A stretch of DNA of 64,000 bases, taken from the NCBI RefSeq assembly GCF_002571385.2, contig NW_019217793.1, positions 947,984 through 1,011,983 on the forward strand, given 5' to 3'. Shown here one piece after another: positions 672 through 64,000 of the stretch; position 1 is the first letter of the stretch; the number at the start of each line of letters is the position of its first letter. The notes beneath the pieces were generated by a model. It was given only the letters and a program-made list of their open reading frames with translations. It was not told where the DNA came from and made no database searches. This DNA comes from Stylophora pistillata. Its lineage: Eukaryota. The position numbers were made by a program, and so were the translations under genes.

Positions 672-2134
672 CTGCAACAAGAACAATGTACTCTTTTTGC
701 AGAAGACTTTCTTTGTGGGAAGCGATTTTGTCCTTGAGGTTTCCAATGTTCTTTTTGAAAAGGGTATGAACCTTTTCATCCATCTTGTTCAAACAAAGAT
801 CCGAGTGTTCGTAGAAATGGAGCAAGGTTGCTCGTTTTCTCTCGTCTTCTTTCTTTGCCTCCGTCAACACTGAAAACGCCTGATAAATATCACAAGGTAA
901 ATAAAGTACTATGCATCAACATTCGCCCGGGTAAATTAAAGGTTAATTTCGGCCTAATTGGTTAATTTTACCGCTTTATAGTCATTTCGGAAATCTTTGC
1001 TACCAATAATATCACCTCTATAGCGCTTAAACATCCCTGTTCTGAGTGCAGCTGAATTTAGGGTGTACGTACATTCATTAGGCTGGTCAAAGCTCGGAAA
1101 AACAGCCGCAATGCAATCATCTAGAGGTTACCGTTTGCATTATGTTATCCATGAATACCTAAGTAAATATCCATGTATTGTGTAAACGAAAGAAACTGTT
1201 GATGTTTAGCCATAGCAATTCCTTGCCAAGATCCTCCCGAACGATTTACCTTTGGCAAAAGAATCCAACTCTTCGGTGACAGTTAAGAGTAGTATAAAAA
1301 ATTGTGGCATCTTTTCACCGTAGAAAAGCATCATGTCAGTCTGGACAATAAGTCTTTTGTAATATATTTTGCAGAAATTAGGCAAGCTTTTCTAAGAAAA
1401 TATGAAAACATAATCCTGATACAATCGCCAACATTTTCCCAAGGTTTATAAAGTTTTCCAACTTTAATCACGGGATGCAAGGAAAAGACGGCAGAATATT
1501 GCAGCAAAATGTATCAATCCCTGATGTTCTAAGTGCCGTAACTCTCAACTTGAACCGTCGAGGCTCGTTCGTTGCTCAACCAAACTTACCAAATTATAAA
1601 CATCAATATGCATGATAATCTTTCACTGTGCGAGCACAACTTATCAATTTCTTATTTTAAATCATTTTGCTGACACTCGTGATCAGTAGAATTGTTGATG
1701 AAAGCATCCATAAGTAATGAGCGGCCTTGTAATTAACTCTTCGTGTTGCTAAGTTTGAACTTAGAGAAACAATTGGCGATCGAGTGAATGCTACGATTTC
1801 CACTGATCCATGGTACTTAGGCTTCTTCTAGTACTACTCATTTCCGAGATGCCATTATTGAAAAGATTCACATGAAATAAATTCCGCTAGTGTGTTGAAA
1901 ATTTATACATAAATTGAATCTGATAGTAGCCCATGTTTTAAAAGAAAATTCTAGATTTCGCACCTCCTTTGCCGTCCAGCTTGACTTTTTCTTTGACGAC
2001 CGGAGTGTCTCTTTTACTTTTTGTTTCATTTCGTCCAAAGTTTTCAGCCCTTTGGTCGATATTTTTAGCGACGCCATTGTGGTTACCATCTCCACGATGT
2101 CGTTGATCTTGTCAATGTCTGATAACGTACTCAT
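672..2134 (-). CDS. 5' exons of DSTYK-like dynamin-domain/kinase paralog A (gene continues beyond the left edge)
   Basis: Exon 1 is 2134-1964 (ATG, MSTLSDIDKI...WTAKE, donor GAG|GTGCG). Exon 2 is 879-672 (acceptor cag|GCG, AFSVLTEAKK...YIVLVAG, donor G|GTTTG). Exon 2 has the same length (208 nt) and phase as exon 16284-16077 of paralog B and shares 39/70 identical residues (manual count). Confidence 0.8.
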
Positions 2135-3883
2135 GTTGCACACCGATAAGTTAAACGTTTATGATCAAAATTTAGTCCGTTTCATGTTTAAAAGCTAGGA
2201 AATCTGCGAGAAAGGAAAAAAATAAGCCTCAAATGTTGGGCTTCGTTCAGTCAAAGTCCATTACACACCAAGTGTCTGATTACAGTAGTGCACTGTCACG
2301 CATCTTGTTTCTGACGAGCATTAACTGAGCTTGTTTGACAGTCAAAGCGTGACTAATCACGCCATAAGTAAATATCGAGGAGAATAAACCAAACACAGGT
2401 ACAGGTACATGAAGAAAACAACGGAAAACGAAGTTTTCTTGATTACATTCAACGCCAGTCTTTTCAATGTTTATCAAAGAGGAAGCGTGTATATACCAAC
2501 AATCCGTCTAAGGCTTTAGAAGTTGTTGACTTGTTTTTGTTGTTTTGTTTACTATTTTTGTTGTTGTTTATTATTATTTTACAGAACATTACAAACAAAT
2601 TTACACAACCCGCATATAGCATTAGCTAGTCTTGGCGGGTATTAGAAAGAAATAAGTAAATACTACACATTGCAANGCACAACTTATCAATTTCTTATTT
2701 TAAATCATTTTGGTGACACTCGTGATCAGTTGTATTAATCGTTGATGAAAGCATCCATAAGTAATGAGCGGCCTTGTAATTCACTCTACGTGTTGCTAAG
2801 TTTGAACTTAGAGAAACAATTAGCGATCGAGTGAATGCTACGATGAACTTAGAGAAACAATTAGCGATCGAGTGAATGCTACGATTTCCACTGATCCATG
2901 GTAATTAGGCTTCTTCTAGTACTACTCATTTCCGAGATGCCATTATTGAAAAGATTCACATGAAATAAATCGATACGAACTGCATCTACCATTTATAAAA
3001 GCATCTAAAAAAGCAGGTCCACACCAGCCTTTGGGTTGCCACAAACCGACCTGCCTTAACAAAAATTATATGTATGTATGTATGTATGTATCTAGATACT
3101 TCCACTATATATTGTGTTGCAAATGTCCTTTTTACATAAACTGAATCTGCTAGTAGCCCATGTTTTAAAAGGAAATTCTAGATTTCTCACCTCCTTTGCC
3201 GTCCAGCTTGACTTTTTCTTGGACGACCGGAGTGTCTCTTTTACTTTTTGTTTCATTTCGTCCAACGTTTTCAGCCCTTCGGTCGGAATTTTTAGCGACG
3301 CCATTGTGGTTACCATCTCCACGATGTCGTTGATCTTGTCAATGTCTGATAATGTACTCATGTTGCACACTGATAAGTTAAACGTTTATGATAAAAATTT
3401 AGTCCGTTTCATGTTTAAAAGCTAGGAAATCTGCGAGAGAGGAAAAAAATAAGCCTCAAATGTTGGGCTTCGTTCAGTCAAAGACAATTACACACCAAGT
3501 GTCTGATTACAGTGGTGCACTGTCACGCATCCTGCTACTGACGAGCATTGTCTGAGCTTGTTTGACAGTCAAAGCGTGACTAATCACGCCATAAGTAAAT
3601 ATCGAGGAGAATAAATCAGACATAGGTACAGGTACATGGAGAAAATAACGGGAAACAAAGTTTTCTTGTTTACATTCAACGTCATTGGTATTGAAGCATG
3701 TATATACCAACAATCGTAAGTCCTTAAAAGTTGTTGACTTGTTTTTGTTGTTTTGTTTACTATCTTTGTTGTTGTTTATCATTATTTTACAGAATATTAC
3801 AAGCAAATTTACACAACCCGCATATAGCATTAGCTAGTCTTGGCGGGTATTAGAAATAAATAAGTATATACTACACATTACAA
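1634..3883. repeat. Near-identical tandem duplication (1634-2675 / 2677-~3883) containing exon 1 of paralog A, joined at a single N
   Basis: Both copies begin GCACAACTTATCAATTTC and end ...TACTACACATT(G/A)CAA. There is an N at 2676. Copy 2 has a ~41-bp internal duplication (~2804-2885) and a ~130-bp insert ending in (TATG)n. The second exon-1 copy is at 3361-3191. Confidence 0.9.
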
Positions 3884-5650
3884 GCTAAAGAGTTTGATTA
3901 CCACAATAAACTAAAGAGATTTTACAATAAACTAAAGAGATTTCATTACTACTATATTATTGGGGTTATAAGCCATGCATTAGTTTACTACATTATAAGC
4001 TAAAAAATACGTACAGTTGTCATACAAATTAAATACAATAAAATTACTAGTGAGTTAAAACAAGACATAATAATCAAATACAGAACCCCTNNNNNNNNNN
4101 NNNNNNNNNNNNAAGAAGTGTGAATCCATTGTTGTTGTTATCCGGAATTCTGATACATAGCTGATGATTCATTCTTTTTTGTGCTGGCCTGTAAACGAAA
4201 AAATTTGATTTCTTCACGTTAATAGTTAGTTTATTAGCATTAAGCCAATCACAGACATTTTTTAGCTCATTATTAACTACGGTTTCCAGGGATTTCAAGT
4301 CTTTGTCAGCATATATATATAACAGGTTTGTGTCATCAGCAAACAGATAAATGCCAAGTTTATCGCTACAAAAATGAATGTCATTAAAATAAAATCAAGA
4401 AAAGTAAGGGGCCTAACACAGATCCTTGTGGAACTCCAGTAACCGAGTTATTGTATTGTACATGAGAACCACTCATGTACAATACCTCTTATCCCATAAT
4501 GGTACAATTTATCAACTAGAATAGTGTAATTGACAGTAGCAAACGATTTTTTAAAATCGAGAAAAATACCACATGTGAACATTTTCTTGTCCATATTAGT
4601 TTGTACTGTATTCACTATGTCCAAAATTGCATGCTGAGTAGAAAATTTCTCTCTGAAGCCATACTGGGCTTCAAATAATAGTTCATTATATTCGATGTAT
4701 GATTTCAATCGTTTGTACTTAAATTTTTCAAAGATTTTATTGAAGACGGAGAGTAGTGAAATAGGACTGTAGTTGCTAGGGTCGGTATCATCGTAGCCCT
4801 TGTATACCGGGATAACTTTTGCATGTTTTAGCTTGGAAGGATATTTTCCACTTTGGACAGAGAGGTTGATAAGCTCAGCTAGTGGTGAAGCGAGTATGCT
4901 CTTTGCACATTTCAAAACACGAATAGGGCATGAATATAGTCCATAAGCCTTGTTTAGTGGTAAAAGCGAGATTTCTAGTTCGATATCTGATGAAATGACT
5001 GGTTCAAAGAAAAAGAAAGTGGTGAAAATGATATTTGTTAAGTATTCGTTATAGTGACAATTACTATCTTGTACATTTGCCGCTAACTTTTGGCCAACCG
5101 TAGAAAAGAAGTCGTTTAGTACGTTCGGCAATCCCGCTAGGTTACACGTCATACCATTCCCGTTTAGTCGTTTAAGGCCAACAATGGGTTTTGATTTTCT
5201 TTTGTTTCGGTTCAGTACGTCGTTGATTCCAGTCCATGTTTTCTTCATATCGTTCAGATGTTGTATGAAATATTTGTGATTATAGAGCTTTCTACTAAGA
5301 CGAATTAGAGATGTAATTTTGTTTCGATAGAGTTTGTATTTGTCGGTATCCCCTGAGGCGAATAGAGCGTTATTAATTTTTATAGATTTGATTAGCCCTT
5401 TGGAAATCCACGGTTTTAAGGATTGCTTGAATTTTCGCTTTGATAGAGGTTTAAGCGGAGCATGTTTATCTGTCAGTTTGTTAAGTTTGTTATAAATTTG
5501 TGAAAAAGCGATATCGATATTTCTGATTTGTTCTCGCAAGAATCGATTCTCAGCCGACTTGCGCTAATTCAGAGTTATAATCCTCTTCTGAAAACCTAGA
5601 GAAGTCATGCACCATGGTCTTTTTAGGGAATTCAGTCAAGCAGAATTGAC
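3735..5650 (-). mobile_element. 5'-truncated, frameshifted CR1/L2-type LINE (ORF2 reverse transcriptase)
   Basis: ORF 4448-5539 contains KPWI..GL, P.SLLSVFNKIFEK, QYGFR and GIFLDFKKSF. Downstream frames give GVPQGSVLG (~4438-4412), YLFADDTNL (~4349-4323) and WLNANKLTIN (ORF 4074-4298). The 3' UTR has a stem-loop ACCCGC...GCGGGT (~3817-3849) and an (AAC/AAAC)-rich tail at ~3735-3780, also present in the duplicated copy at ~2530-2640. Confidence 0.9.
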
Positions 5651-7323
5651 AGTAGTGGTCGCTTATGTCTGAAATAATGTTGCCACTATAGGATGGGAGG
5701 AATGGGGCTTATTTAAACAAACACTGGGGGACAATGTACCGGTAATTTTTTTTTTAATTCCGACTTCATTTCTTACCGAAGAAAATTTACAGTATTCATT
5801 TCTTTGTGTAAAAAACCTATACAAAATTATTTTAAAATGGATTTTGATGGAGGCCTTCAAATACAAGTAGTTTTTGCAATGTAACCCTGTTTCACAAAAA
5901 TTACTGAGTGAAATTAAATTTTCAAAAGTTTTTGATTTTGGTAGAGGAGGTAGGGGGGTTTGCTAGAGACGACATTTCACATAAAAAAAAAAATTCAGTA
6001 CAGTTGGTATATTAGAGAAGGAGGGTTAGTTGAGAGGGTGGGCTGATTGGTGTGCTAATACTGGCTTATTTGCTTCTTCGTAGAGTCTGGTTAACTCCTC
6101 GTGACATGCTGTGGAGTGCGGTCGACAGTCTGGTCTTCCATCCCAGCAACGCTGCATCAGACCTTGCCATTCATTTGGAGGCTCCGTCCTGTCTTGAACA
6201 TGCTCCGGTCTTATACCTAGAACCACTCGTTCATGTAGCTCGTCTGCATGAATGCCTTCAAAGGCTCTCTTACCATACCACATCTCCCATAGCATGACAC
6301 CAAAGCTATATATATCCGCTTTGCGGTCGTAGTGTCTGAAGGAGGCCACCTCTGGAGCCATGTAGTGAGGAGTTCCCATTTGAGTACATGTGATCATGTC
6401 TTCCTCTTTCGATAGGCCGACATCGGCTACCTTGACAACGTCATCATGCGACAACTAACAAGTAAAACAAACAATATATACAATATCAGTAACCTACTCT
6501 TACTACTCTTTCCTTGCTGTCAAATATTGGTGTTGTATTGTTTGAGCGACATGATGATCATCTTCAGGTTACAAATTACCCAGAGAACTTGATGGATGTC
6601 CATACAAAGACCATTTGCCTATCAAACTCATAAAAGAAGTTATTGTGACAGGAGACTAGCCTCTCTTTGATGGTGTAGGACTGTAGGACTCAGATAGAGA
6701 GTCCATCGTAATGTGAGTGCATCGATCCATTTAACCATTCACCCACCTACACAACATCAACATGGATAAATATCAAGAATATGGCAGCATTTGTTCGACA
6801 GAGGCTATTTCCATTTGTCCCGTTGTACGAGGACGATAGAACCCTTGACCTCTATCACTGTGCACGCATCTGATTAACTCATACTTACCAATGTGTTTTC
6901 CAGTTTGAGATCTCTGTGAATAATTCCCTTACTATGCATAAATTCCAGAGCATTAGCGATGTCTTTTGCCCATCCGATCACGTTTTTTGCAGCGGCAGAA
7001 GTTGTTGTAGAAAAGCCAGGTACACGGTTCCGACTTCCAAAAATGTGCTTCATCAAGTTCTACTTACAGAGTTCCATGACAAGTATTGGTCTTGATTCAC
7101 CCTTTTCTTTAAGAAGTGTTGCGCCGTACAACTTCACAATGAAGGGATGATCAAGCTTCCTAAAAAAGATACAGTGAGAAATTGAGCTCTAAACAGTTGT
7201 TTTCTGGTCGTCCCAGTGTCGACAGTTCACTACCTCTACAAATGACACGGCTGTTAAAAAAAGTATGTTGCGCAAATTAGATTGAGAAAGCTCTCATGCT
7301 ATCATTCTGGTTAGCACCAGAAA

Positions 7324-8366
7324 TTGCGGATATTTGCGGAAATTGCACCAGAAATTTCGGATAAGGATAGTTTCTGCGTCGTACAACACTTGACTCCACT
7401 TAAGTTTGATATTTCGAGTAAATGTTTTTCAGGGCCTGTCCAACACACAAACCTTGCTTTAATTAATTGTCCAAATTCGAGGCAGGTAGTCTCTTTAGAT
7501 GGATTAGATAGGTGTTTTGAAAGTGAAGTAGGTTTCTTATGGCCTAAGAATGTATTAAAGTCAGTTTCTAGCTTGCAATGGTTGGGTTTAGCTTGGAATC
7601 CAGACGTGAAACTTTCCTTCCCACGAAATCACCATCCTACTTCGAAGTGCGACCATGTCCATCCGTTAGTTCACCTTGGAGGTAGATATTTTATTTCCAC
7701 ACTTCTGGAACTTTGGCTTTGAACAATGGCAAGCTTAACATTTCTCCGTTGGCCATCTATAGCTTCCCTTGCAACAGATGTTTTGTTGGAATGGAGACTA
7801 GTTTGGGCACCTGTCCCCAGAGACTAATGGTGTCACTATCACTTTTCTCAACGGACACACTTTCATATGTTCCATGGGATCCAAGCTCAGGTGATTTTCC
7901 CACACTAAGGTTACATCACAAGTCATCCTCTATACCACCACCCATCAAGGTTAATCGTGCGGCGATTAACAACTTTGACGAGTTGTTTCAACTTTATGAT
8001 AGCCAGCTTAGTGGCGCTTTGCAGAAGGCAGACAGTTTGATTGATCAGATAGAGGAGACTACTCAAACCACTTACATCGAGTATATTGTTTTCGTTGCAC
8101 TTGGTCTATCAGGGGTCAATTTCATTGTCTTCTGTATTCTTTGCCGGTGCATCTCCAGAATATCCGTGCGACATTCCACGCCTGCTAGCCCACCTACCTT
8201 GCCAACAGCCGTTGCAAAGAGTCACCAATATAAAACCTGCACTCATCGTTCTGAGCACAAGAGGACAAATCGTCCGAAGAAAGCCTCCAAGGAAGCTCGC
8301 ACAGCATATGACCCCAAAGTGGACAAGGAATACAAGTTATCCAAGACGAACTATTCAAGGAACTGA
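7324..8366 (+). pseudogene. C-terminal half of an envelope/fusion-type glycoprotein (env-like), frameshifted near 7700
   Basis: Overlapping ORFs 7324-7722 and 7713-8366 join into a Cys-rich ectodomain, a heptad-like membrane-proximal helix (NNFDELFQLYDSQLSGALQKADSLIDQIEE), a TM (YIVFVALGLSGVNFIVFCILC) and a basic cytoplasmic tail. It lies upstream of the PPT/LTR, where env is expected. Confidence 0.65.
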
Positions 8367-9070
8367 ACTGAACTTCCGATGATGCATTACGTAATAACAC
8401 TAACCTTACTTAATTTCTCTACAATTCTGAACGACGCCTCAGCTACGTATTTAGCGTCAGTTAGTGGTCTGTTTGCCTCATTTAAATGTGAATATGACGC
8501 CTATTGTTCAGGGCGAGCAACACCAGTTTTTCGAATTAACCTCCTTTTCTCATAGCAATCCACTAATTTCTTTTTTGGGTTATTTTTGGGTTTCAGTCGA
8601 TCGTTAGACTGGGAGTTAGATAACGTCCCCGAGTTTATCCAAATTTGTCATTATTTCATGGTCCATGAACGGTTCTTGAGTGACGTCTTTCGCGTCGCTT
8701 TTCCGCGTGACTACTGCAATTTTTTCGCAGAAAACCAATTCTGCGAAGGGTTGTTCGCTCTGAAAACTTCTCGTTACCTTTTCTTCGCTCGTAGCCTTAC
8801 TATTCGCGCGTCACAAGAGTTTGAAAACATTTTCATTTAACCAATATCTGATGTCAGCCTCTAGTGTGGATGATTTTTTAAAACAGTCAATTAATGGTCG
8901 ATTGAACGACTTAGGCATCAATTGAAAGATATTATTGAGGATTCTTGAAGTCATTTCGTGTGCACACTACTCGACCGAAGAATACTTAATTATCGACTTT
9001 GTATCCGTTCCAAACACAGCTTTTCCTACCGTCTGCATTGAGGACGATGCCTAATTTAGGCGGGGAGGAA

Positions 9071-10216
9071 TGTTGTGAGGTAAAATTAGAAGTTGTTATT
9101 TTGAGACTTTTTCAGTTAAGCTTTTTGTTTTGTTGAGCCTTGCCTTTTGCGCGTACGTGTTATTTTGGTAGATTTATAGTTTTGATCTTTAATTTTTAGT
9201 GTGTGCTTGAACTTGGCTCAGTTCGCGGATTTCCTTTTTACCGTGCTAGACATTTTAATCGCTTGTTATGGTTGAGAATAATTAGTTTCATAGGTGGTCA
9301 TGTTTGGGTTGATAAAACTGACTTTGACTTTTACCCACACTGAAGATCCTGTTTGTGTGCGTGATTCTCGCGCGCAGCTAAATCATTGGCGCTTAATCGG
9401 TTCCTGGTGCTCGCCAAGTACTTCGGAGCGAGCTACCCAATTTCCCCCTTTGCAAAATAACAAGTCAACTGTGGAAACTCCCACGGTCAGCTAACCCAAA
9501 CATGTCTGTGATTTTTGTATTTAATACGTGGGCACTCCTTGCTAAAAGTAGAAGAAAAATGGCAGTAGCAGCAGCAGTAGAAGAAGAAAAGATCTGAAAC
9601 GTTGTAGTAGGAAAGGAGAATAAAAAGAGAAGATTCTTGGTACTTCTTGTTAAAAGTCAAGCGAGTAGTAAAACCCCCAACATTATAACCAACTGAAACT
9701 GAAGATAACTCTTCGTGCTCTGGTATAAAATATAGCTGCATAGAAATTCTTATTACTTGCTTTCTATTCGCGCCTGCCACTGTCCCATGTTCACGCCGAG
9801 AGGAACGCAGAACCTTTTCAATCTGGTATTTATTAGATGACAAAAACATTTTGTAGATACGGACATGGGTTGCGGTCGGCATCACTACTCTTAAGACATT
9901 CAGTTTGTCTAGCTCCTTTTGAACGAAAGTAAATGTAAATAAACCGAGTCATTTTAAATGACACCCACAACCCCGACACAGAGATCAGCGAACCAATCTG
10001 AGCCATTAAAGTGTCAATCTAAGACGTAGGCGATCAAACATAGAACGTTACGGAACCAACCAAAGCTAGACTGACAGAGTTGAATAACGTATACGCATGC
10101 GCTAGATTTTGCTGCGGAAACACGGATTTGAGTCGTTCGCATGGTTGATTTCCTATTCTGTTGCTTTGAGGTGTCGTTTTCCTTGCCGCTTTTCATTTAC
10201 AGAACAACCTCCAAAA
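9071..10216 (+). repeat. LTR (~1.15 kb)
   Basis: Starts TGTTGTGAGG immediately after the PPT. Ends CCTCCAAAA, an 8/10 match to the inverted terminus CCTCACAACA, followed by ATT-TGGTAC. TATAAAA at ~9724 and AATAAA at ~9938. Confidence 0.6.
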
Positions 10217-13200
10217 ATTTGGTACACCCCCTAAAAATTTTCAAAAATCAATTCTCTCCTTTAAATCTTTGGAAATAGGAAAGTGCCTTCGACGAAAATA
10301 GAGTTCCACGGTTTTAAAGGTCAGCCCTCATCATTTTCCGCTAATTTCGCTAAATTTTAGACCTAGGTCACTTGAGCCCGCGTTGTTGACCGCATACCCG
10401 CTGAAGTAGCATTTCATTATTCAGCTCTGTCAGCTAGACTTTAAGAAACCAACCGACAATAGACGATACAGATTAAGGGTCTGGCGTTGAGGAGCAAATC
10501 CACCTACCAGGCCCCAGGGAATTAATCAGCCAAAAGATAGGGAACAGACCTACAGTAGCTTAGTTCGCTGAAGTCCTATAGTAGTTTAATAACGTCTCAA
10601 GCTGTTTTGCTGAAGTCCTGAGTTAATTCGCGAACAACTTATTTTAGTACGCTAACAATTCATGTAAGCTTTAATCGCTTCCAGATTAGGTTCGCAGGCT
10701 AACAACTCAAGTTTGGTGAGTTCACCCATAACTCAGGTTGGTACAATAACATGTTAGGTTGCTCACAGGTTGCTTATAGAATAAGTGAATTCGTTGACAA
10801 CCTAGCACGGTTAGTTGGTTAGCAACTTAATTTGGTTTTCAGGCGAGTTCGGTTGGTTCGTTATCATCCAAGGTTTGTTTGTTTACCTGGATGAGTTCCT
10901 TGCAACTCAGGTATGTTCGCTAACAATTTGGGTGAGCAGAGTTCGTCAACAACTTGAGTGAGTTCGCTACCGGGAACTTAAGGAGGAAGAGATTTCAAAA
11001 TTATGGGGGGAGGATAGCCCAGATTCTCAACAAACTCGCGCCCCTAGCCCTCGTTTTCAAGCCTTCCCAGTTGAAAAGAAACTTTGCCGTCCCTGTCGCT
11101 AACATTTCGGGTGAGGTTTCAGCGACCTGGGTTAGTAACAAGTGCGTGTTTAGTAGAGACTATTAGATTTTAAAATTGAACCAAAGATAACAGTGAACAA
11201 AACAGCAATTGCAAAACTGCATGAACTGGAACAAAATAACAAGAATTTCATTACACAACATACCAATTGAAACTAACCTTAGGGTATCTGTTTCAGAAAG
11301 GAAGGTTACTGCAGTGCCACTACTCAGTGCCTTTTTCCATACTTTCAGTGCCACGTCCACGGACTTCCCTTCCTCTTGCAGCTTTAAGGTTCCTCGATAA
11401 ACGGTAGCAAAAGCACCATTTCCAAGAGACGATTCTCGGTCGTCTTTCCATTCCAAATCCTCACAACTGATGTCCATGGTACTTACTTCTTTGATGCCAA
11501 AGTCAGCCATCCCCCTTCTTAAATCTGAAGTTTTCAAGTATGAATCTTTAGCATCTTGCAGTAATCGTTTTTGCTGAAGCAAGAGTTTATCACTTTTTAA
11601 CTGTTCTTCAACGAGGGAAATGACTTGTTGTCTGTCAGCCATCTTTGTGAGATATTCTTGAGAGACTTTTGCCATGAATTTACATTTGTCTTTCTTGTAC
11701 TCTTTTGTTTTACTCCGATTATCTAGCTTTTCTTTGGCGGCCATTGTTCCAATTACCGGAGCACTGACTAGAAGAGCAACGATGGCGACGGGAGCCCAAA
11801 TGGGACTTGTGACTCCCATAACCGCTGTTTCTGTCACGCTTAAACTGAAACTTCTTGAAGTCTGTGGACCACTTGATGATGAGTTGGCTCCACTATCTGC
11901 TTTAGGGGAGCTCTGCACAACTTTACTCTTTTTCTCGACGCAGCTGAAATACTGGAGCAAGTTCTGTGTCAGTAAAGTGCGAGATTCTGAGAAAACATGG
12001 GTTTGTTTCTCCCATTCCTCGATCTTCTCCTGAAGTCGTTTCGCTAATGCAGTTTGAATGTTTACCTCTGTCACCGCCCAATCACCCCCGACGTCTGGAA
12101 CATTGTCTAATGACCACGAAGTAAAGTATTGTAGAAGTTCTGGTGAGTTAAGAAGTTTGGACAATTCCCGGGCAGCCACATCTTTGACTGTCGTGTTATT
12201 TAGACACTCCTGCAGCTCTTTGTCTACTGCACACTGCTGACTTTCGTTAAGACGATCCATTTCAGTCACAGCCTTCTTCACCTTTAATAATTCTGCTTTA
12301 GTGCGATAGACCAGACGTGAAAGAAGGTGGTAAAGCCATCTGAAAAAGAGTACATTGCATGTTAGCAAGAACAGCAGAAATTCAACAGAGCCTGCAACTA
12401 CAAATTAATTGCGTGAATCATCTTTTGACCCGTGGATCAATTAACAAATAACCAACTCGAAATGATTCTCCCAGATGTACAGCAATTTGTTGAACTGCAG
12501 TCCAACTGACAGGATCATTTCGTCCGAGATATTATTTGCTTTACTATTTACATCAACAGGGGACGGGAAATCCATTAAAATTTACCTCGCCTTAACAGGT
12601 GGCTTCGTTACTCAGTTTGTAGCGACCGAAATACAGGTTCGAACCTCATGGAAGGATAAATTTTACTAAAGCCTTTTTTCCTGCAATTTCTTCAACAGCA
12701 AATTCTACAATCGGATTAGTATTTGGAGTGGGCGGAAATTTCGAAAGGCTTGTTGGGTTTGGACCCCAAATGAACATTCGGAAAAGCCTTAAGTCAATCT
12801 TGTTGTTCAGATTTTAACAGTCTAATACAACTTACCTCCATTGCTTCTCTAAGTTTATTTCAATGCTTTTCAAAACCATGGAAGAAATATCATTCATCAG
12901 TGAAGCGGACGTAACATCATCAGAAGCTTCTCTAGGGATCTGGGCGTTGCTGTTACTACTTGATGAAATGCAAACGATTTGTGACTTTGGGTCCTCACTG
13001 GGCCAGCGCTCTGTGAGATGCTTGACGATGCAACTCTTAATCTTATCAGCCTCGTGTGGCAGTACTTGATCCCATTTACTTAAAACCAGAAGAGGACAAG
13101 TTGGCAACGATTTCATTTGTTGGTCCAGAAATACAATGACCTGTTCGGTGTGCTCCACGTATTTTTCTACCTAATTACAGACAGTAAAAAGAAACATGAG

Positions 13201-14414
13201 TTGTTACTTCAGATGAACCTTAAGCAATGGACACCTTCATATGATGGACACCCTTTTGTCCTGGAGGACGGTCCACTCAGTCACTCTTATTTTGAACTCT
13301 TTACAATGACCGTGACCACCTCTCCTAATTGTCAACAGCCATTGAGGTGCGACCAAGCGGTCGAAAGTATCTTCTCGACAACAACCATTAAATCACCAAC
13401 TGAGAATCAGTGTATTGCACTATAATATTTCTAAACGTCCACTGAGGCCCAAAGTCGCCTTGCAGATTTGATCACACAACCGCACACATGCCTCCTGGGT
13501 CACATGACCCAAGTTACCGCGTTGCACAACTCCAGGATATCGCGCAAAAACTACATGCACGGTGCAGAAAATAATTTTATAAGCTTTTCACCATCCTCAC
13601 TTCCTTAAAACAGCTAAACCTTTTAACAAAAAATAATCATACTTTCCGCTTCCCTCAAGGTGGACACTACGGGGAAGTTCGACTACATGTGAGATTTCAC
13701 CTGGTTTTTTTGTTTTGTTTGTTTTTTACTTTTTTAATATTATAGGCTTTTATTTCTGCTAATAGACCGTACAAATTACCTTGTCTCGATGTATTCCCTC
13801 GCCATTTATACCATTGATGATGCAGATGAATGCGGAGGCCTCCAAAAGGTATGCCTTTGCCTTGTCATTTATGGAGGGGGATTCATAAGTGCCCACGATG
13901 TCAACTATAACAACCCCTTCCTGAAAAAGATAATATCAGAATAAACACATAAACGATATCTAGTCAATCGATGTCAATCCCAAATATTTTTTCATTTAAA
14001 GGCTCGACACAAAGGGAATTAAAGAAACAACGTCGACGACGTGTCTGTATGCATTTGAAGCTTCCTCGTCAACTTTTGGGGATTACATAGATAGAAAAAA
14101 AATGGCTGGATGGATGGAGGAATCGAAGAAGGGAGTGATGAATAAATGCAGCAATGATCCGGTTTCGCAGTTCTTCCCCTCTTCAAGGCAAGACCGATCG
14201 CAGAGAGGTGCAGAGAAGTACCACTCTTGTAATTATTCGAGCTCCAAAACCACCATCGAACGTCTACTACCTAGTCTACCCGTATTTCCTCGAATAAGCA
14301 ACCCAGCTCCGATAAACCTCTCCCCCCGAACGGTTATTTTCACAGGCATGCTATGGCTTAGACTGGGCACTACATAATTATGTGACTTGGAAAAACTTTA
14401 GGGTCGGAACACAA

Positions 14415-14630
14415 TAGTCCCTTTTACAGTTGTGGGTTTGGTGGCCAAGCCTTTGAACAGGAGTGAGGCTAAGGGTGACCCTGTTGTGATAGAGACCTGT
14501 ATCTAGTTAGCATGATAACAAAGTAATTTGCATTTGAAAAGCAGCAACATCTCTATCATAACAAGGTCACCCTAAGCCTCACTCCTGTTCAAAGGCTTGG
14601 ACATCAAGCCCACAATTGTAAAAAGGACTA
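14415..14630. mobile_element. MITE (~215 bp, ~85-bp TIRs, TA ends)
   Basis: TAGTCCCTTTTACAGTTGTGGG...GCCTTTGAACAGGAGTGAGGCT is mirrored by AGCCTCACTCCTGTTCAAAGGC...CCCACAATTGTAAAAAGGACTA. It sits ~25 bp from the exon donor at 14655. Confidence 0.85.
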
Positions 14631-17600
14631 TTAAAGTTCCTTCATATCACCAACCTTCAGTTGGGGCAAAATTAGTTCGATCTTGTCGTAAAGTAGATCC
14701 TTCGAACTCTCTTCACCGACATCTCCGAAAATAGTGGAGAGGAGCTGTTGCAAACAGCTTCGTTGCAGAGTCTCAAGTGACTCACTCTCTAAGAGAGTTA
14801 CCGAGACAACTTCTGCTCCAGAATGTTTGTGCGCTACAAGCCTGGGTGCAGTTCCATATTTTAGTTCGAGGATAGTGGACGAGGTGCTGACTACGAAAGG
14901 AGGAAAAAGTTCTTCTTCGATGATCAGATTTAGTAAGTTTCTCTTTTCCAAACATCTCTCACCTACAAACAGACACAAAATACTAAGTCCCGTAACCATT
15001 CGAGTCTAAGACATTTCCTACCTCACACTTAGGCTATTAATGGAAGAATGGCATAACTTTAGTCAAGCTGATTCGTATTACGAACCGGTTCGATTCGGTC
15101 TGATTACTCTGCTGGAGAGTTTTTAGTTTTTATGATGAGTCGAAGCAAAATAATGTTCTAAGTTGAAGTCTAAACCTCGTAGATTCTTCCCCGGATCCTT
15201 CCTTATGCATTTCAGTAGCTAAGCAACTGCTCACCCACCTTTCCCTAACCCAACAACAGTCCACTAATAGCAAGTTAAGGTTCAGTAATGTTGGTTAGGG
15301 GTGGGGTAAGGTGCGCAGTTGCTCATTTTATGAACTGGCATTAATCTCTCTTCGTTCCTTAATTTGAATGTCTTTTGATTTCTGATTGCTTGCTTGCTGA
15401 TTCAAATTGAATTTGTCGCAAACATGTGTCAGTAGATATTTACAGGTGGACTTGTGGGAGGGTCTCAATGGGGGGCGATGACTTTCAAGGCTGACGGTTA
15501 AATATTTTGGCCATTTTACGGCTAACGAATTACTTCCTTCTTTTGTGATTGAAAGAAAAATAGTTTACGCTTAATTTTTTTACGACTGACGATTAAAATT
15601 GGTAAATTTTTACGCCTAACGGCTATTTTTGTGGCCGTTTTAGGGATGACGGTTGTGACGATATTGCATTGTCTTAGCGTCCAATCAGATTTCAGTATTT
15701 ACACGTGCGCGCCAACTTGTTTTCGTCTCTCTCTGGTTTTCCTCCCCATGGCCGCTTGTAAGTCGTTTGTGAGTTCACAATGTTCTAATTAAACGAGTTG
15801 AAGTGGTGAGAACGTGAGCCAATTCTTTATAACGGTAAACCCTGTTGAGCCCTCTTGTAGCGAATTTTAGCGATGAGTTCAGTTTCCAATCCAGTCGTAA
15901 AGTGAAAATTGAAAATTACAACAAATTACTAATAACCTAGGTTAGGTATAATCTTCCGGTCAATAAACTTCCGGTAAATGACTGGAGCAAGTAATATTGT
16001 ACGGTAAAATTAACAACAGAGGAAGTATAAACAGGAAACCATTGACAATTTGGTATTTTGTCTATCGATCACAAACCTGCCACGAGCACAGTGTATTCTT
16101 CCTTCTTTAGATTCCGTTTGTGGAAAGCGATTTTGGTTTTGAGATCTCCGATGTCCTGTTCCAAAAGGGCACGAACCTTGTCATCCATAAAGTTTAAACA
16201 ATCCTCCGTACTCTCGTAATATTTGTACAGCTCCGCTTGTTTTCTTTTGATTTCCTTCTTGGCCTCGGATAACATAGAACACGCCTGGAAAACGCAAGAG
16301 AATAAGATTTACGCGTTCTTACACTGATTGGTATGATCATCTGCAGTGAAAGATAAACCTTCGTCAGAGAGAATCATTGGCTGACATTCGAAACTTCACC
16401 TTTGGAATCTTTCTACGGTGTTGTTTACGTCTACTCAAAATGCCAGAGTCTACCGCTCTCGATTAGGCTTGATCATGCAGCTACCGTGGAAGGCACTCCA
16501 GCGATTATCATTGAGTGCCAGAGAGAACGGAGATCTGTCGAAATCGACAGCTGAATTTAATATTATGGTGGCAGTTGATAAAACCAAATTATCATACATG
16601 GATTTATACAGTTACTAAGTCACGAAATAATCAGTTATCTAAAAGGAAAACCACCGCTCTAGTGCTAACGCGCACTGTCATAACACATTGTAATGATTTT
16701 GTCTAATAATTTATTTTAGAAAAGCTCCCGTCTCAACAAGCACAATTTAATGCTTTTCCTGGGTCTGGGTCATCGGGTGACGTTCGCCCTGCATTCACGG
16801 AAATTAGCCGAATGAGCTTTTCCGAGAACTATCCGATCACTGTCTCTTAGTATATTTTTCCAACTTTGACGTAGTGTTCATATTTCTTATGGAGTTTTCA
16901 AAGAAACTAAGGAATTGGAAACAAACGATCAACTTCCCTACTGCATTTGCGAATAATTTTTGAATGAAGGCGATTAAAGTTCTACTTGGTGTTCATTTAT
17001 AACTTGCACATTAGACTGTCTTGGGATGTGATTTATCAAAATTCACGATACATTTAAGAATTTAAGTCAGCAGAACTATATAAAGCTCTTTTTTTCAACG
17101 ATTACCTCGAGATTTTACTGTATTTACGTGAAATTTTAAGTTAATCGTAAAATAGCCAAATTAAAGGTAAAGATATGCTAGCTGCACCCACGGTTACCCA
17201 GCTACAATGACAGTGTCCCAGTGTCGGTTTAAAGTTCGAACTATGTTTGGACTGGTCGCCCATCCAATTAATCAAATTATTACTTAAAGAAAAACCTATC
17301 TCGTAATACACTTCCATTGATCCATAAACATTTACTGTAATTATGCTTACACAATGAAGGAAAACGTTCTGTAAAACATACGAGATGATCGAAATCAATC
17401 AGCTCCCGCTAAATTTGATACTTCCGCCACAAAATTGATAATCTCGTCTCCAAAATTGCTGCACGAGGAATATTTGTCATGTTTACTTCTTATGTCACGC
17501 AGCTGGAAGATTTCATAGGAACATCTAACTGCCATTTGTTTCCTCTTCGACTTACCATTTTGTTCCGTACTCGTACTTCCTATGGTCAAACCATACACCA

Positions 17601-17897
17601 CCCGGCGTTGCCTAGATTCGTCGGATAATGTTCGCTGCTGCTGTCTCTTCAATGTTTCTCGACGTGCTTATGTGGAAACGGGAATTATGTAAACTACATT
17701 TAAAAGAGAATTAAAACGAGCCCGAGGACCGGGATAGTCTGGAGTAGCTTGCACTATTCACTATGCTCCATTTGCAGATGACCGGCGCTGGGCTGTCACC
17801 ACAGTCACGTTGTTGGAGTCCTTAATCTTCTTCTTCTTTGACCTTTAAGACATCCGCTGAACGCAATGAATGCAGGTACAAACCATCCTTACTCGCT

Positions 17898-18141
17898 CAG
17901 GGCCGAGCTTTTCAAAGGTGGGTCAAGATAACCCAGGGTTAGCGTGTAATTTGACTTCAGAGCTGAAAGCTTTACAAGAAAATTCAGTTTAATTCCATTT
18001 GTCTACAATTTGATGATTGAACGCTCTCAAAAGAATTGGGAAAATTATCCCAAAACGGCTTTTGAACAGAGAAATATAGAAACCTGGATTAAAATTTAAC
18101 CCTGGGTTAGCGCCAATCGGCCTTCGAGCAACTGGACCCTG
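17898..18141. mobile_element. MITE
   Basis: Imperfect TIRs CAGGGCCGAGCTT / AACTGGACCCTG with internal palindromes TAACCCAGGGTTA and TAACCCTGGGTTA. Confidence 0.7.
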
Positions 18142-19314
18142 CAGTTCTTTAGGCACCAGAAGAGAAAACAAGCGAATAAAATATATTTGCTCGGACGGAC
18201 ATCTCTTCGCAACGAGAAGCCTTTTCGGAGAAAAATGCATACTTCGGGGAACAGCGAATGTCCATGGACAAATTTTCAAGCTCAAAGAAAGGTTATCGTG
18301 TTTATCAATCTTCAGATACATGTATAATTTTTTTTTTCAGCGTGTTGAACAAAGCTTTTATAAACAGCATACCGTCGAAAACGGTGTTGACTTTTCAGCG
18401 AGATTTTATGAACAAACCAAACTGCCTCCTCTTCCCCTTTATCTTTGATTTGTCTGATGGTAGCGAACACTCTTCCTGCTTGAACAAAATTTAACAGGAA
18501 GACCCTTGTCACATTGAAAATTGGGACTGGAAAATTGTGGAATATCATTTAGGGAATATCAGCGGATGTCACGAACTTTTAACCAAGGCATATTTAGTTA
18601 TGTGACTCGTTTAAACCCATCGCAAGCGGGCGAGCTAAAATATTTGATGGACTCAGAATACAAAATATACGACAAATTCAAACAGAAACTTAGTTCATCA
18701 CAACCTCATTTCAAGCTAATTTTTCTCCGTTTTCTGGTTTAATTTGGGTTTCGCCGTTTCACTTCCAGTGGCAAGGATCTGTTGTTGCAACCTTTTGCCG
18801 TTGTTATAATTACGACACTTTCACAAGAAATTCTTAAAGACCAACAGGATTAAACAGTCACATGGAAACGGCACAATACAGCACACAAACAAATTCAGTT
18901 GCTTTAGTTCCTTCAGTTCTTTTCCTATTACATTAAAAAATGTAAAATTATATATGCCACAAAAAGTCAGTTCCGAAAGATGTGAGCGAATAGAGGGTCG
19001 ATTTCAACGCGTTTCTTCGAAGGGACCTGAAATCGAGGTACTGTGGGCGTTATGTTGGGAAGACGACGTGTGAGCGCATCGATGACCCTTACGAACGCTT
19101 TTTACCAAAGAAAAAGGGTTGGAACATTCCCTAGATCCTCCTCGTACACTGTCAGTGGAACGTGCAGTGGTAAGTTTGACGTATTCTCGGAACAATTAAC
19201 TGCGACAATAGTCACTCATCGAATGAGACGTCTTCTATAGCTCTTAAAGGTTCTGTTCTTGACCAAGAGTTGTAAGGAAAATGTCATAGAGGCCAATATT
19301 AATAAGAGCAGCCG

Positions 19315-22300
19315 TCACACTGTCCACTTTAGGCATCTTGTGTCCTGGTGTGTTCCCAGACACTTGACACAACAGTATCTCGATCCGCAAGACACACAGG
19401 TGTAGTTTGAGGGAAATGTGAAGAATAGTCAAGGATCCATATATCTTTTACTGAAAAGTTTTATTTGCCTCAGCACCCCCCCCCCTAATGATGGCAAGAA
19501 CCCGAACGGCTGATCTTGTTGTCAGAACAACGAAAAAAAAGTTATAAAGGTGCAAATTTTGTGAGCTACTTTGAAGAAAAAAAACGAGTCTAATTAAATA
19601 ACATCTCACCATCTTTTATTGTTTGTAACTTAAAAGTCCAGGGTATTAACCAATCCACATTTTTTCATCCCTTTCCAAAGTGCTTGAAGTAACTAACTGT
19701 CTAAGTCTCCATTGTAGTCATAAGTTGGGCTTGTTGCAAAACATGATGATAATGGGGGGATCATGTAGTTTGATGAGCCCATATCGTGGATACAAAAGAA
19801 TTAAAGGTATGAGAAAGTTTGGACAAGTGGCCTTCAAGGTGCTCGAGCTCATCCTTGTTTCCAAAGGATGAAGCCACTTGGAGTATTGCTACCCCCAGTG
19901 GATGGGATGCCACTTTATCACAGGTTATCCCCCTGCATTTTTTCAGGCTCCCTGGAGAGAGGCACTGTGAGAGAAAAGTGCTTGCCGAAGAATACAACAA
20001 AGTCACCTAACCAGGTCTTAAACCCAGACCTCAGTCAGCTCGATAGCCATTGGGCCACAGAATCCTCCACTGTTTCTGAATTACTGACAGGAAGTTATAG
20101 TTTCAATGGGGCTTTCATTCAAGAAGGATATGATAAATTTCAATTGGATCGTTTCTGTCTGGTTGCACACAACGATAAAGGTCCAGTAATACAGGCAACA
20201 TTTTTCTTCAACTTGTCTTGCAACATTGTTGCATTGCAAGTTGAAACCCTTTGTTGAAAATTTGTTGCAGAAAGTAGAACTCGAGTCTACTTTGAGCAAG
20301 ACGTTGCCTCAACTTGCAACACTATATTTTGTTGTGAGACAAGTTGGTCATGAACGTGGTAATACGACCAACAAAGGGCTTCAACTTGCAATGCAACAAT
20401 GTTGCAAGACAAGTTGAAGAAAAATGTTGCCCGTATTACCGGACCTTAATGCTGAAGATAAGAATACCGTATTTCCCTGAATAACCACCCGAGCTCTAAT
20501 AAATGCCTTCCCCCAAATAAGTGCCCATCCCCCTAAGCCATAATGTGAAACAACTGAGTGTGCACAACTTCTCCTTCACTTTTTCAAATGGTGGGGATAC
20601 AAGGAAAACCTGTTCCTACCGCCATCTTATTCATAACTTTTTAAGCTTCATCTACAGCAGAATCGCCACAGGAGAAAAATTAGCATCTTGTGTGATTAAA
20701 CACTCTCCTTCCAAGAAGTGCCCCCCTTTTATCCAAAATTTTTATTCAGTGCTCAGGCTTTTATTTGAGGAAATATAGTATATCAAAAAAGGTACAAAAC
20801 GACATGTGACAATTTTAAAAAAGGATATCCACACACAGCACAGAAGTGTCTCTCTGGGAATTTTGAGGGAGGTACCTTGGCTGAGGTATAGGATGGTTCA
20901 CCAGCTTCTGCTTCTTGTTGCTGCCAAAAAAATACAAACAAACAAGCTAGCAAGTGACAAAAGTAAACAATACTGACATAACAGCAAATAACTTAAGAAC
21001 CCTTTGACCCTAGAGAGTGACTAGAATTTCATTTCTCTTTACAATATCACCCCTGACTCACACATTAAGGTCACACAGAATATATCTTATTAGATGTTTT
21101 GCTGTGTAGTATTGCTAAGTATGTTTATGAGTTGTGCTGTATTTTGATGAGCTCAAAGGGTGAGTCAAGATACAAATAACAAGTAAAAATAATCAGCGAC
21201 ATGAAACACCAAAATGTGTAATAAATTAGTTATCATCCACCATACCAAGTTGTTATTTCAGTGCAAGTGAATTTCGCAGATAGTTATTTACAAAGAGTGT
21301 GTCACAGAAGTACGTGAAATGGAACAGGGTTTGCGTTTTGTCATGTTGCTGTTTCTATATTTATTTTCTTCACTAAGTGATGAAATTTCATTTTCCCTCC
21401 TTTTCTCGTTTGATTTATTCTCCAGCCATTCCAACTCAAAAAATTTAAATTGCCCCCCATTTTATTTTGTAACTTTAATCCTAATCGTCACTTGTGCAAT
21501 ATAAGAAAAGCTGTCTAACTGGTTCTCTGAAGTACAAATACCGTGTGATATTTGTACTAAATAAGCTCTTGGTTGTTGAAAAAATTTTCCTTGTCAGCAG
21601 CTAAGAAAGCATAAATAGAGAAAAGTATGGAGAATATGCATACTGATGTTCAGGTGTTGAGGGTTACCAAAACATTTACAAACTAGAGACAAGAAAGACA
21701 TGGACATGACATTTACATGCTGTCTGAGTAGAATAAGATAATAATTACAGTTATGGTGCTTAATCCCTTTCGTTAACCTTATTCTAACTACTGACATCAA
21801 AATTGTTACAAAAAAACTCACTGCCTCCTCCAAAAGCATGACAAATGTTCTCCGAAATCTCTGAGGGAGTAAAAAAAATATAAATAAAAAAAAAACACAA
21901 ACTATCATAAACCAGGACTTAACATTTTGAACACACTCAATTATTGTACATCATCAACTCAACTTTAATTTTTTTACTTCAAAAGTTCACTTTTTTCCAG
22001 GAAGCATGCCCACATACCCCCCTTCCACCACCCAGGAAGGTGATGCCCGGGGTGTCACAATTGAAGGCTGTGTAGTCCAAAATCTCACTATTTGTCACCA
22101 AATCAACTTGGGAGCACTGCTCATGTACATACATGCACTGCTGTTCCAGCAGAAAAGGAAATCATTTGAGGCTTTGCCTCCCCTCTCAATACCAAGCATT
22201 TCATTGAATTTCTTAAGAGCTTGATGAGTGAGAAAGTTAACTCCATTACCCACACAAAACAGTACCATAGTCTTAAATGCATACAGACCTGTTTAAACAA

Positions 22301-63882: not shown

Positions 63883-64000
63883 GTAATGCCATCATCTCAC
63901 TCTTTAGTTATTTTAATTATCCTCCAGTCAAGGGACTCCGTCGGAACCATTAACAGTGTTCCATAAATAGAGCTTACCCTTTGTTGAAGGTAATCGATAC

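What the first reader, a model, noticed from the sequence alone, without database searches (positions are those of the whole stretch)
672..16284. Tandem, fast-diverging array of dynamin-like-domain + TKL kinase genes (candidate coral immune/sensor family)
Seen: two same-strand paralogs ~4 kb apart with an identical 208-nt exon but only 39/70 identical residues, each carrying TE insertions, and one with a nonsense mutation. The protein joins a helical N-terminus, a dynamin/DLP-type G-domain, a long helical stalk with a hydrophobic paddle-like segment (TAVMGVTSPIWAPVAIVALLVSAPVIG) and a C-terminal kinase. Established: DSTYK is normally a single conserved gene in bilaterians. Dynamin-superfamily GTPases (Mx, GBP, bacterial DLPs) act in membrane surveillance and antiviral defence, and the paddle is the lipid-insertion element of mitofusin/bacterial DLPs. 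Inference: this is a lineage-expanded birth-and-death family of membrane-bound dynamin-kinase sensors, possibly involved in defence or symbiosis.
Basis: partly seen in the sequence, partly recalled or inferred. Interest (0 to 1): 0.75.

Follow-up and report, generated by a model that had tools for sequence, protein, structure and literature searches.

The report
Coral dynamin-kinase fusion gene family
These two neighbouring coral genes belong to a large multi-copy family of marine-animal proteins that join a bacterial-dynamin-like GTPase to a protein kinase and likely act as membrane-bound defence switches; the fully visible copy is transcribed, has lost its GTP-binding motifs, and carries its stop codon on only one allele.

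Summary
Confirmed, with corrections. The window matches Stylophora pistillata. Gene A has 8 exons and 918 codons; only the first two exons of gene B are visible. Both belong to a family combining a BDLP/mitofusin-type GTPase, a helical stalk with a hydrophobic tip, and a kinase. It occurs in sponges, corals, molluscs, brachiopods, nemerteans, hemichordates and amphioxus, with lineage-specific clades and at least 8 Stylophora clusters. It is separate from true DSTYK, which is its nearest language-model neighbour. Gene A is not a pseudogene: three RNA studies carry a sense codon at the 'nonsense' site, and its kinase is under purifying selection (dN/dS 0.22). Its GTPase motifs are degenerate, and a 67%-identical orthologue shares the damaged P-loop, so it is a likely pseudo-GTPase kinase. 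Positive selection was not seen (regional dN/dS 0.2-0.6). A defence role rests on indirect evidence: two adjacent oyster 'mitofusin-2' genes with kinase annotation rise about twofold on dsRNA and herpesvirus, and single relatives carry CARD+TIR or HEPN domains. No 3D model could be made. I found no paper describing the family in ten searches.

The parts
17556..17558 (-). Gene A start codon at the end of a likely mostly untranslated exon 1 (ATG|GTAAG); the family's N-terminal 57-residue module is absent
   Evidence: Gives the NCBI model P0001 exactly; RNA contig 25 of run X6 has 117 extra letters ahead of exon 2 and RNA runs show depth in bin 17250-17703. The exon's position is inferred.
16077..16284 (-). 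Gene A exon 2 (208 nt): N-terminal neck helices up to the start of the P-loop
   Evidence: (RNA piece 16075-16283)
14655..14962 (-). Gene A exon 3: G domain with degenerate G1 (GERCLEKR, about 14940-14962)
   Evidence: RNA contig covers 14654-14964 with 3 differences; orthologue P0302 has GERCLEKS
13780..13920 (-). Gene A exon 4: G3 motif changed to DIVG (13902-13891)
12836..13170 (-). Gene A exon 5: G4 motif changed to SKWD (13080-13069), end of G domain
11278..12339 (-). Gene A exon 6: helical trunk, hydrophobic tip, return helix (two in-frame deletions, about 10 and 26 residues against P0004) and kinase N-lobe
   Evidence: 100% identical to S. pistillata LOC111335523
11748..11828 (-). Hydrophobic paddle-like segment, the protein's hydropathy peak (2.06 over 19 residues)
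   Evidence: falls on the hydrophobic segment of a cyanobacterial BDLP-type protein in a profile alignment. Membrane insertion is inferred.
6889..7159 (-). Gene A exon 7: kinase, HRD motif intact
   Evidence: in one RNA contig with exons 5, 6 and 8 (run X4 record 17)
7060..7062 (-). Codon 719: TAG in this assembly, lysine codon in 3 of 3 RNA runs; polymorphic
6026..6454 (-). Gene A exon 8: kinase C-lobe (DVG, APE intact) and stop
   Evidence: Pfam PK_Tyr_Ser-Thr 1.1e-21
7262..10439 (.). Multi-copy repeats in gene A intron 6, including a + strand ORF 7686-8366 that ends in a hydrophobic stretch and has no family hit
   Evidence: Summed contig depth about 1,100-328,000 against about 145 over exons in run X15; no Pfam or PDB match
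14072..14640 (.). High-copy repeat in gene A intron 3 (limits approximate)
   Evidence: depth 266,965 in bin 14072-14525
4448..5563 (-). Non-LTR reverse-transcriptase fragment between genes A and B
   Evidence: Pfam RVT_1 7.3e-10
3191..3361 (-). Gene B coding exon 1, second copy (possible haplotype duplicate)
1964..2134 (-). Gene B coding exon 1: 57-residue N-terminal helical module, 45/57 identical to Pocillopora P0004
   Evidence: one relative (P0152) hits Pfam Ish1 here at 2.4e-4, below the curated cut-off
672..879 (-). Gene B exon 2 (208 nt), 54/69 identical to P0004, which has an intact GTPase; the rest of gene B lies off the window

Best explanation
The two genes are tandem members of an old, repeatedly duplicated invertebrate family that joins a bacterial-dynamin/mitofusin-type GTPase, a helical stalk with a hydrophobic tip and a C-terminal kinase, and the proteins likely bind an internal membrane by the tip, likely pair through their GTPase heads and would thereby switch on their kinases as a defence or stress signal. 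Shown: the architecture, the copy number, expression and splicing of gene A, and its motif losses. Inferred from BDLP: the helix returning from the tip packs back at the neck, which would put the kinase beside the G domain, so GTP- and membrane-driven head pairing would bring two kinases together, much as in Roco/LRRK proteins. Gene A is a specialised copy with a degenerate GTP site and an intact kinase; it would work as a nucleotide-independent kinase or as a partner of intact paralogues such as, probably, gene B. Other lineages show the reverse, an intact GTPase with a degenerate kinase.
For: Family N-terminus: Pfam Dynamin_N to 3.5e-24; best solved relatives are Nostoc BDLP 2J68 (2.7e-23), then mitofusins and a bacterial DLP pair; ESM Atlas neighbours are bacterial DLPs and Fzo. 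Profile alignment to a PF21808-bearing cyanobacterial DLP is collinear over 553 columns (prob 99.4) and puts tip on tip, 109-115 residues before the BDLP end against about 115 before the kinase. Stalk hydropathy peak at this position in 86 of 92 aligned members, and at least 1.6 there in 76 of 92. G1 intact in 106 of 108 scoreable proteins; the G domain is the most conserved region (dN/dS 0.23). Expansion: 8 S. pistillata and 13 Oculina clusters among 120 listed of 130 hits; genus-specific clades; stops or a frameshift in 3 of 39 coral loci. Defence hints: adjacent oyster genes CGI_10025825/26, named Mitofusin-2 but with kinase GO terms, rise log2 0.8-1.3 after poly(I:C) and 0.7-0.9 after OsHV-1 (PMC7064767 Table S5A); one amphioxus member carries CARD+TIR and one oyster member HEPN_DZIP3; the region at and before the tip has the highest dN/dS (0.58 background). 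Human DSTYK, the nearest outside neighbour, sits on late endosomes and phosphorylates STING (PMC11933320).
Against: No structure was obtained. The stalk alone does not align significantly to BDLP (prob 0.8, E 0.07) and does not hit PF21808. No region shows dN/dS above 1. The oyster genes were assigned by name and GO term, not sequence; induction is only about twofold; CGI_10025826 also rose log2 0.4-0.6 after seawater injection, and the gene listed as mitofusin-2-like without kinase terms rose too. An oyster 'Mitofusin-2' kinase also responds to zinc (PMC4883820). Of the 35 long or extended members scanned for extra domains, only those 2 showed immune-type ones in the rows printed, and gene-model fusions occur in this set (P0282 joins gene A to its neighbour). 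HRD..DxG is intact in only 94 of 153 two-domain members, so kinase switching cannot be universal. No coral challenge data were found.
Confidence: 0.5

Rival explanations
1. The family does DSTYK-like housekeeping on endosomes and lysosomes (fusion, size control, mTORC1/TFEB signalling), and the copy number reflects tandem turnover or tissue specialisation, not defence.
For: DSTYK localises to late endosomes/lysosomes and enlarges and fuses them when overexpressed (PMC6981171); purifying selection in all regions; some coral orthologue pairs are old (P0047/P0044, P0053/P0040); an oyster 'Mitofusin-2' kinase is expressed in eggs and embryos.
Against: Independent expansions in Acropora, Montipora, Oculina, amphioxus and oysters, with disrupted copies, are unusual for housekeeping membrane GTPases (own knowledge); oyster induction by dsRNA and virus; a separate conserved DSTYK exists in oyster.
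Confidence: 0.25
2. The proteins are direct effectors like Mx, GBP or IRG: they coat and remodel pathogen- or symbiont-containing membranes, and the kinase is a dispensable accessory.
For: G1 is intact in 150 of 153 two-domain members but the kinase motifs in only 94; kinase-less models exist (P0024, P0027, P0053, Trichoplax P0120); bacterial DLPs of this branch have anti-phage roles (PMC11789081 discussion passage).
Against: Gene A keeps the kinase under strong constraint (dN/dS 0.22) while losing the GTP motifs; most coral members keep HRD and DVG; several kinase-less models may be truncated.
Confidence: 0.15
3. Gene A is a decaying pseudogene and the locus is only a duplicate graveyard.
For: Stop allele, lost first exon, degenerate G1/G3/G4, two stalk deletions, long branch; G-domain dN/dS raised to 0.45 (p 0.01 against background); the stop allele is at about 60% depth in run X15.
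Against: Spliced RNA with an open frame in 3 studies; kinase dN/dS 0.22 (p 9e-5 against 1) and G domain still below 1 (p 4e-4); an orthologue at 66-75% identity keeps the same damaged P-loop in open exons.
Confidence: 0.07
4. These are simply the coral's DSTYK orthologue and a recent duplicate.
For: [quoted passage not shown]
Against: Atlas keeps DSTYK clusters (927 aa Chordata, 972 aa Mollusca; no Dynamin_N) apart from family clusters (98% Dynamin_N); oyster has one SgK496 at 73.8% to human, apart from weakly matching 'DSTYK' and 'Mitofusin-2' kinases; at least 8 Stylophora clusters.
Confidence: 0.03

Closest known systems
Bacterial dynamin-like protein BDLP (Nostoc, PDB 2J68; Pfam PF00350 + PF21808) and paired bacterial DLPs (PDB 5OWV)
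   Same: G-domain sequence, N-terminal neck helices, collinear trunk, hydrophobic tip about 110 residues before the end of the stalk.
   Different: Adds a small N-terminal helical module and a C-terminal kinase; animal multigene family; stalk not detected by PF21808; gene A's G motifs degenerate.
Mitofusin/Fzo
   Same: Second-best solved relatives (4.6e-13); databases name several members 'mitofusin-like'.
   Different: No Fzo_mitofusin (PF04799) hit; carries a kinase; multi-copy.
DSTYK / SgK496 / RIPK5
   Same: Long non-catalytic N-terminus plus C-terminal kinase of similar total length; nearest non-family Atlas clusters (0.93, 215 of 256 features, against 0.86 for other kinases); endomembrane location and STING signalling reported for DSTYK.
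   Different: DSTYK clusters lack a Pfam-detectable Dynamin_N; the oyster orthologue is a single, highly conserved gene. Homology of the N-termini was not tested.
Roco proteins (LRRK1/2, Roc-COR-kinase)
   Same: GTPase and kinase in one chain; dimerisation-coupled kinase control (own knowledge). This is what it likely works like.
   Different: No COR or LRR; the GTPase is dynamin-type with a putative membrane tip; Roc hit only E 0.11 in 2 of 13 members.
Mx, GBP and IRG antiviral/antimicrobial GTPases
   Same: Large GTPases with lineage-specific duplication; possible induction by dsRNA and virus.
   Different: Different dynamin branch (Drp1/dynamin hit only at the P-loop, E above 1e-3; IRG about 2e-4); none carries a kinase (own knowledge).

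Membership tests
BDLP/mitofusin branch of the dynamin superfamily (family as a whole) | Dynamin-type G domain with intact G1, G3, G4 | tested here: met
   G1 106/108, G3 107/113, G4 110/118; Dynamin_N above cut-off in the 5 full-length relatives; BDLP best PDB hit
BDLP/mitofusin branch (gene A itself) | Intact GTP-binding motifs | tested here: not met
   GERCLEKR, DIVG, SKWD; Dynamin_N only E 0.01, 16.3 bits against cut-off 27
BDLP/mitofusin branch | Neck-trunk helical bundle with paddle at the tip | tested here: inconclusive
   Collinear full-length alignment and matching hydrophobic segment, but stalk alone prob 0.8; weak second stretch to 2J68 357-509; no PF21808 hit
BDLP/mitofusin branch | 3D fold matches BDLP/MFN | not testable with these tools
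BDLP/mitofusin branch | GTP hydrolysis, head dimerisation, lipid binding | not testable with these tools
   Needs biochemistry
Mitofusin proper | Fzo_mitofusin HR2 domain at the C-terminus, no kinase | tested here: not met
   No PF04799 among hits; C-terminal kinase present
DSTYK/SgK496 | Single, highly conserved gene without detectable Dynamin_N | tested here: not met
   At least 8 clusters in S. pistillata; separate Atlas clusters; oyster SgK496 listed apart
DSTYK/SgK496 | Groups with vertebrate DSTYK in a kinase tree; N-terminal homology | not tested
   No DSTYK sequence came back or 89
Roco/LRRK | Roc-COR tandem | tested here: not met
   No COR hit; Roc E 0.11 in 2 of 13
Mx / GBP | Dynamin_M + GED, or GBP domains | tested here: not met
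   None among the rows shown
Active protein kinase (gene A, read-through allele) | Gly loop, VAxK lysine, HRD, DFG-like, APE | tested here: met
   GNGAFATV, VALK; HRDLKLEN, DVG, APE. Activity itself untested.
TKL kinase group | Phylogenetic placement among TKL kinases | tested here: inconclusive
   PK_Tyr_Ser-Thr and Pkinase score alike and change order between members; no kinome tree was built

The most novel reading that the evidence does not exclude
Early animals had a dynamin-kinase: a BDLP-type membrane GTPase wired to a kinase that patrols endosomal, phagosomal or symbiont-containing membranes. It diversified into an innate-immune family with complementary dead-GTPase and dead-kinase partners, of which gene A is a conserved dead-GTPase member, and vertebrate DSTYK is its last, GTPase-dead survivor, which would explain DSTYK's late-endosome location, vesicle-fusing effect and STING phosphorylation.
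Probability: 0.35. Interest if true: 0.88.

Novelty: new variant of a known kind. Interest (0 to 1): 0.68.

Why it matters
If right, animals have an overlooked branch of the dynamin superfamily with a built-in kinase, hidden under the labels 'mitofusin-2', 'DSTYK-like' and 'uncharacterized'. Oyster, amphioxus and coral immune transcriptomes that report 'mitofusin-2' responses may in part be reading this family. It gives a testable identity for the non-catalytic region of human DSTYK, a disease gene. It also offers natural pseudo-GTPase and pseudokinase variants for dissecting how a membrane GTPase controls a kinase, and a candidate for membrane surveillance in corals.

Tried and rejected
No own genome was held, so paralogues were counted from protein clusters, not the assembly. 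Structure prediction took no jobs, so no fold search was run. No DSTYK sequence was retrieved. Prokaryote genome scan: 600 pattern matches, none confirmed. Viral scan: 1 weak G-domain locus from 292 matches (L040, 27%). Plasmids gave 6 records matching the G domain only, 5 annotated as dynamin family proteins. So no close prokaryotic or viral source was found, with pattern-limited sensitivity. Positive selection: not seen; foreground estimates for tip and return helix were saturated (branch lengths 4-8) and are not used; no site models were run. The first tree timed out; the tree used is FastTree, and its join of P0001 with P0041 is flagged as a long-branch pairing. Earlier scan findings: none in 3 look-ups. 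Two coral/anemone papers and a coral gene-expansion paper held nothing on the family in term searches of their main text. Peng 2006 and Nicastro 2023 were not held, and either could bear on novelty. ORF 7686-8366 matched nothing; 'env-like' is my impression only. No complex prediction was run: a full-length pair exceeds the size limit and a head-only pair would pass by likeness to solved structures.
Full report
Identity and gene models. Exon 11280-12338 is 100% identical to Stylophora pistillata LOC111335523. Gene A runs on the minus strand in 8 exons (17558-17556, 16284-16077, 14962-14655, 13920-13780, 13170-12836, 12339-11278, 7159-6889, 6454-6026). The donors are GT, the acceptors of exons 2-8 are AG, and the model reproduces the NCBI protein up to a TAG at codon 719; read through, it is 918 residues. 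The first exon's position is inferred. Gene B shows only exon 1 (twice, 2134-1964 and 3361-3191, joined across one N at 2676) and exon 2 (879-672). The shared 208-nt exon is 143/208 nt and 38/69 aa identical. Gene B's exon 2 is closer to Pocillopora P0004 (54/69) than to gene A.

The stop is an allele. I laid 4 of the 24 listed runs on 5900-19500. Two RNA runs and one presumed RNA run, from three studies, read A>T at 7062 at full depth, which makes a lysine codon. Run X15, of unrecorded kind but covering introns, has both alleles. One contig of X4 carries exons 5-6-7-8 in consecutive record positions, and one of X6 carries exons 3, 5 and 6 with room for exon 4 between. These are contigs, so they show presence and joins, not level.

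Gene A is a pseudo-GTPase by sequence. Among 120 proteins aligned, G1 matches GxxxxGK[ST] in 106 of 108 with the motif columns filled; the two exceptions are gene A and P0041, both on the same 1.6-Mb scaffold. Gene A also alters G3 and G4, lacks the first 57 residues and has two stalk deletions. RNA over exon 3 differs at only 3 and 1 letters, and an independent record keeps GERCLEKR (P0284). A search of short proteins returned 6 hits from 1057 candidates. Four of them are exon-sized orthologues at 66-75% identity with gene A as best hit; P0302 has GERCLEKS and P0300 has TKRD at G4. The damage is therefore old and shared with another lineage. With my own codon model (log-likelihoods within 1 unit of IQ-TREE for the three sets compared), using 6-8 of the 39 loci per region, background dN/dS is 0.23 (G), 0.32 (trunk), 0.58 (tip, 45 codons), 0.35 (kinase). 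Gene A's branch is 0.45 in the G domain (p 0.01 against background, 4e-4 against 1) and 0.22 in the kinase (p 9e-5 against 1). A branch average of 0.45 cannot exclude recent full relaxation of the G domain.

The family. P0004 residues 100-700 found 130 proteins among 7999 scored candidates, 120 listed: corals, octocorals, amphioxus, hemichordates, Lingula, bivalves and a kinase-less Trichoplax protein. Eight clusters are named S. pistillata (three on this scaffold's length, one holding two G domains) and 13 Oculina. A full-library profile search listed 150 proteins; 74 of the 138 new ones have G domain, stalk and kinase by my thresholds. Of 30 proteins looked up, names covered sponge (Oscarella), gastropods, cephalopods, bivalves, a nemertean, Lingula, amphioxus and octocoral; no vertebrate or arthropod name appeared, which is not proof of absence. 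A FastTree of 118 N-terminal regions shows Acropora, Montipora, Oculina, amphioxus and oyster clades of paralogues beside a few old orthologue pairs. Three of 39 coral loci have stops or a frameshift in matched exons. Of 153 proteins with both domains, 150 match G1 (two of the three misses look like boundary artefacts) but 94 keep HRD..DxG.

Fold evidence, by sequence only. The N-terminal profile finds BDLP 2J68 first (2.7e-23), then mitofusins and 5OWV. ESM Atlas agrees. Against a cyanobacterial PF21808 protein the alignment is collinear over 553 columns and superimposes the hydrophobic segments, but the stalk alone is not significant. In BDLP the paddle binds lipid, the heads dimerise and the C-terminal helix returns to the neck (PMC2862293, passages). 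Transferring this puts the kinase beside the G domain. That step is inference; no model could be built.

Relation to DSTYK. For whole P0004 the Atlas ranks two family clusters first (0.99; 98% Dynamin_N), then DSTYK clusters without Dynamin_N (0.93), then other kinases (0.86). The oyster kinome table lists one SgK496 at 73.8% to human and, separately, a 'DSTYK'-named kinase at 30% and a 'Mitofusin-2'-named kinase at 25% to their best hits (PMC4883820, supplement rows). So these genes are not DSTYK. Whether DSTYK descends from them is untested. DSTYK is drawn as two non-catalytic regions plus kinase, lies on late endosomes and fuses them when overexpressed (PMC6981171, passages), and phosphorylates STING there (PMC11933320, passages). 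PMC9573974 (passages) places DSTYK outside RIPK1-7.

Function. The best defence evidence is indirect. Two consecutively numbered oyster genes named Mitofusin-2 but annotated as kinases rise about twofold after poly(I:C) and after OsHV-1 (PMC7064767, supplement 5 rows and passages); one also appears at log2 0.46 in one family at 12 h in PMC6182001 (supplement row). Their membership is assumed from name and GO term. One also rose after seawater injection, and a same-named kinase responds to zinc. An amphioxus 'MFN2' falls strongly after LPS, identity unknown (PMC5731807, passages). CARD+TIR (P0290) and HEPN_DZIP3 (P0104) occur on single members among 35 scanned and could be model fusions. I put the membrane-and-GTP-driven kinase with a defence or stress role at 0.5, endolysosomal housekeeping at 0.25, direct effector at 0.15.

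Novelty. Ten library searches, read as listings, showed no paper describing a dynamin-kinase family. Only 8 papers hold both 'DSTYK' and 'dynamin', none on this by title or abstract. An Mx/dynamin evolution paper has no occurrence of 'kinase' (PMC11789081, passages). The library lacks most subscription papers, two relevant papers were not held, and bioRxiv supplements are closed, so absence from print is not established. The domain pair is already visible in automatic annotation. Verdict: a real, apparently undescribed variant of the BDLP/mitofusin branch, with the window's gene as a conserved pseudo-GTPase member; interest 0.68.

Noticed in passing
window 1634-3883: Gene B's exon 1 and flanks occur twice (91% over 793 nt; exon 167/173 nt), joined at a single N at 2676; likely two haplotypes laid in tandem, though a real partial duplication is possible.
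   Followed up: partly
window 6045: Three RNA runs show G>T here in part or all of their depth, making a stop at codon 913 and trimming six C-terminal residues of gene A.
   Followed up: partly
window 7686-8366 (+): 226-codon ORF ending in a hydrophobic stretch, inside an element at roughly 10-14 times single-copy depth in intron 6; no Pfam or PDB match. May be a retroelement envelope fragment (impression only).
   Followed up: partly
window about 18327-22500 (-): Expressed neighbouring gene; GenBank model PFX33655 (P0282, named Zinc finger HIT domain protein 1) joins it to gene A, apparently in error.
   Followed up: partly
window 22722-23288 (+): Single-ORF Sen15 tRNA-splicing endonuclease subunit (Pfam 2.9e-20).
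   Followed up: no
window about 39800-52200 (+): CEP63-like coiled-coil gene (Pfam 4.2e-12 for 39837-40304).
   Followed up: no
window 62559-63953 (+): MFS transporter exons (Pfam MFS_1 1.5e-13 for 63360-63950).
   Followed up: no
P0041 (same scaffold length, outside the window): A paralogue with both a degenerate P-loop (GERNSKKS) and degenerate kinase motifs: a possible double pseudoenzyme or decaying copy.
   Followed up: partly
P0236 (Oscarella), residues about 1-95: N-terminal extension that looks like a death-fold domain by eye; no such Pfam hit among the five rows shown.
   Followed up: partly
P0139, P0151, P0140: Family members with an added trypsin-like peptidase domain (two) or SCAN domain (Biomphalaria).
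   Followed up: no
window 10564-11115: Degenerate 20-35 nt repeats in intron 6.
   Followed up: no
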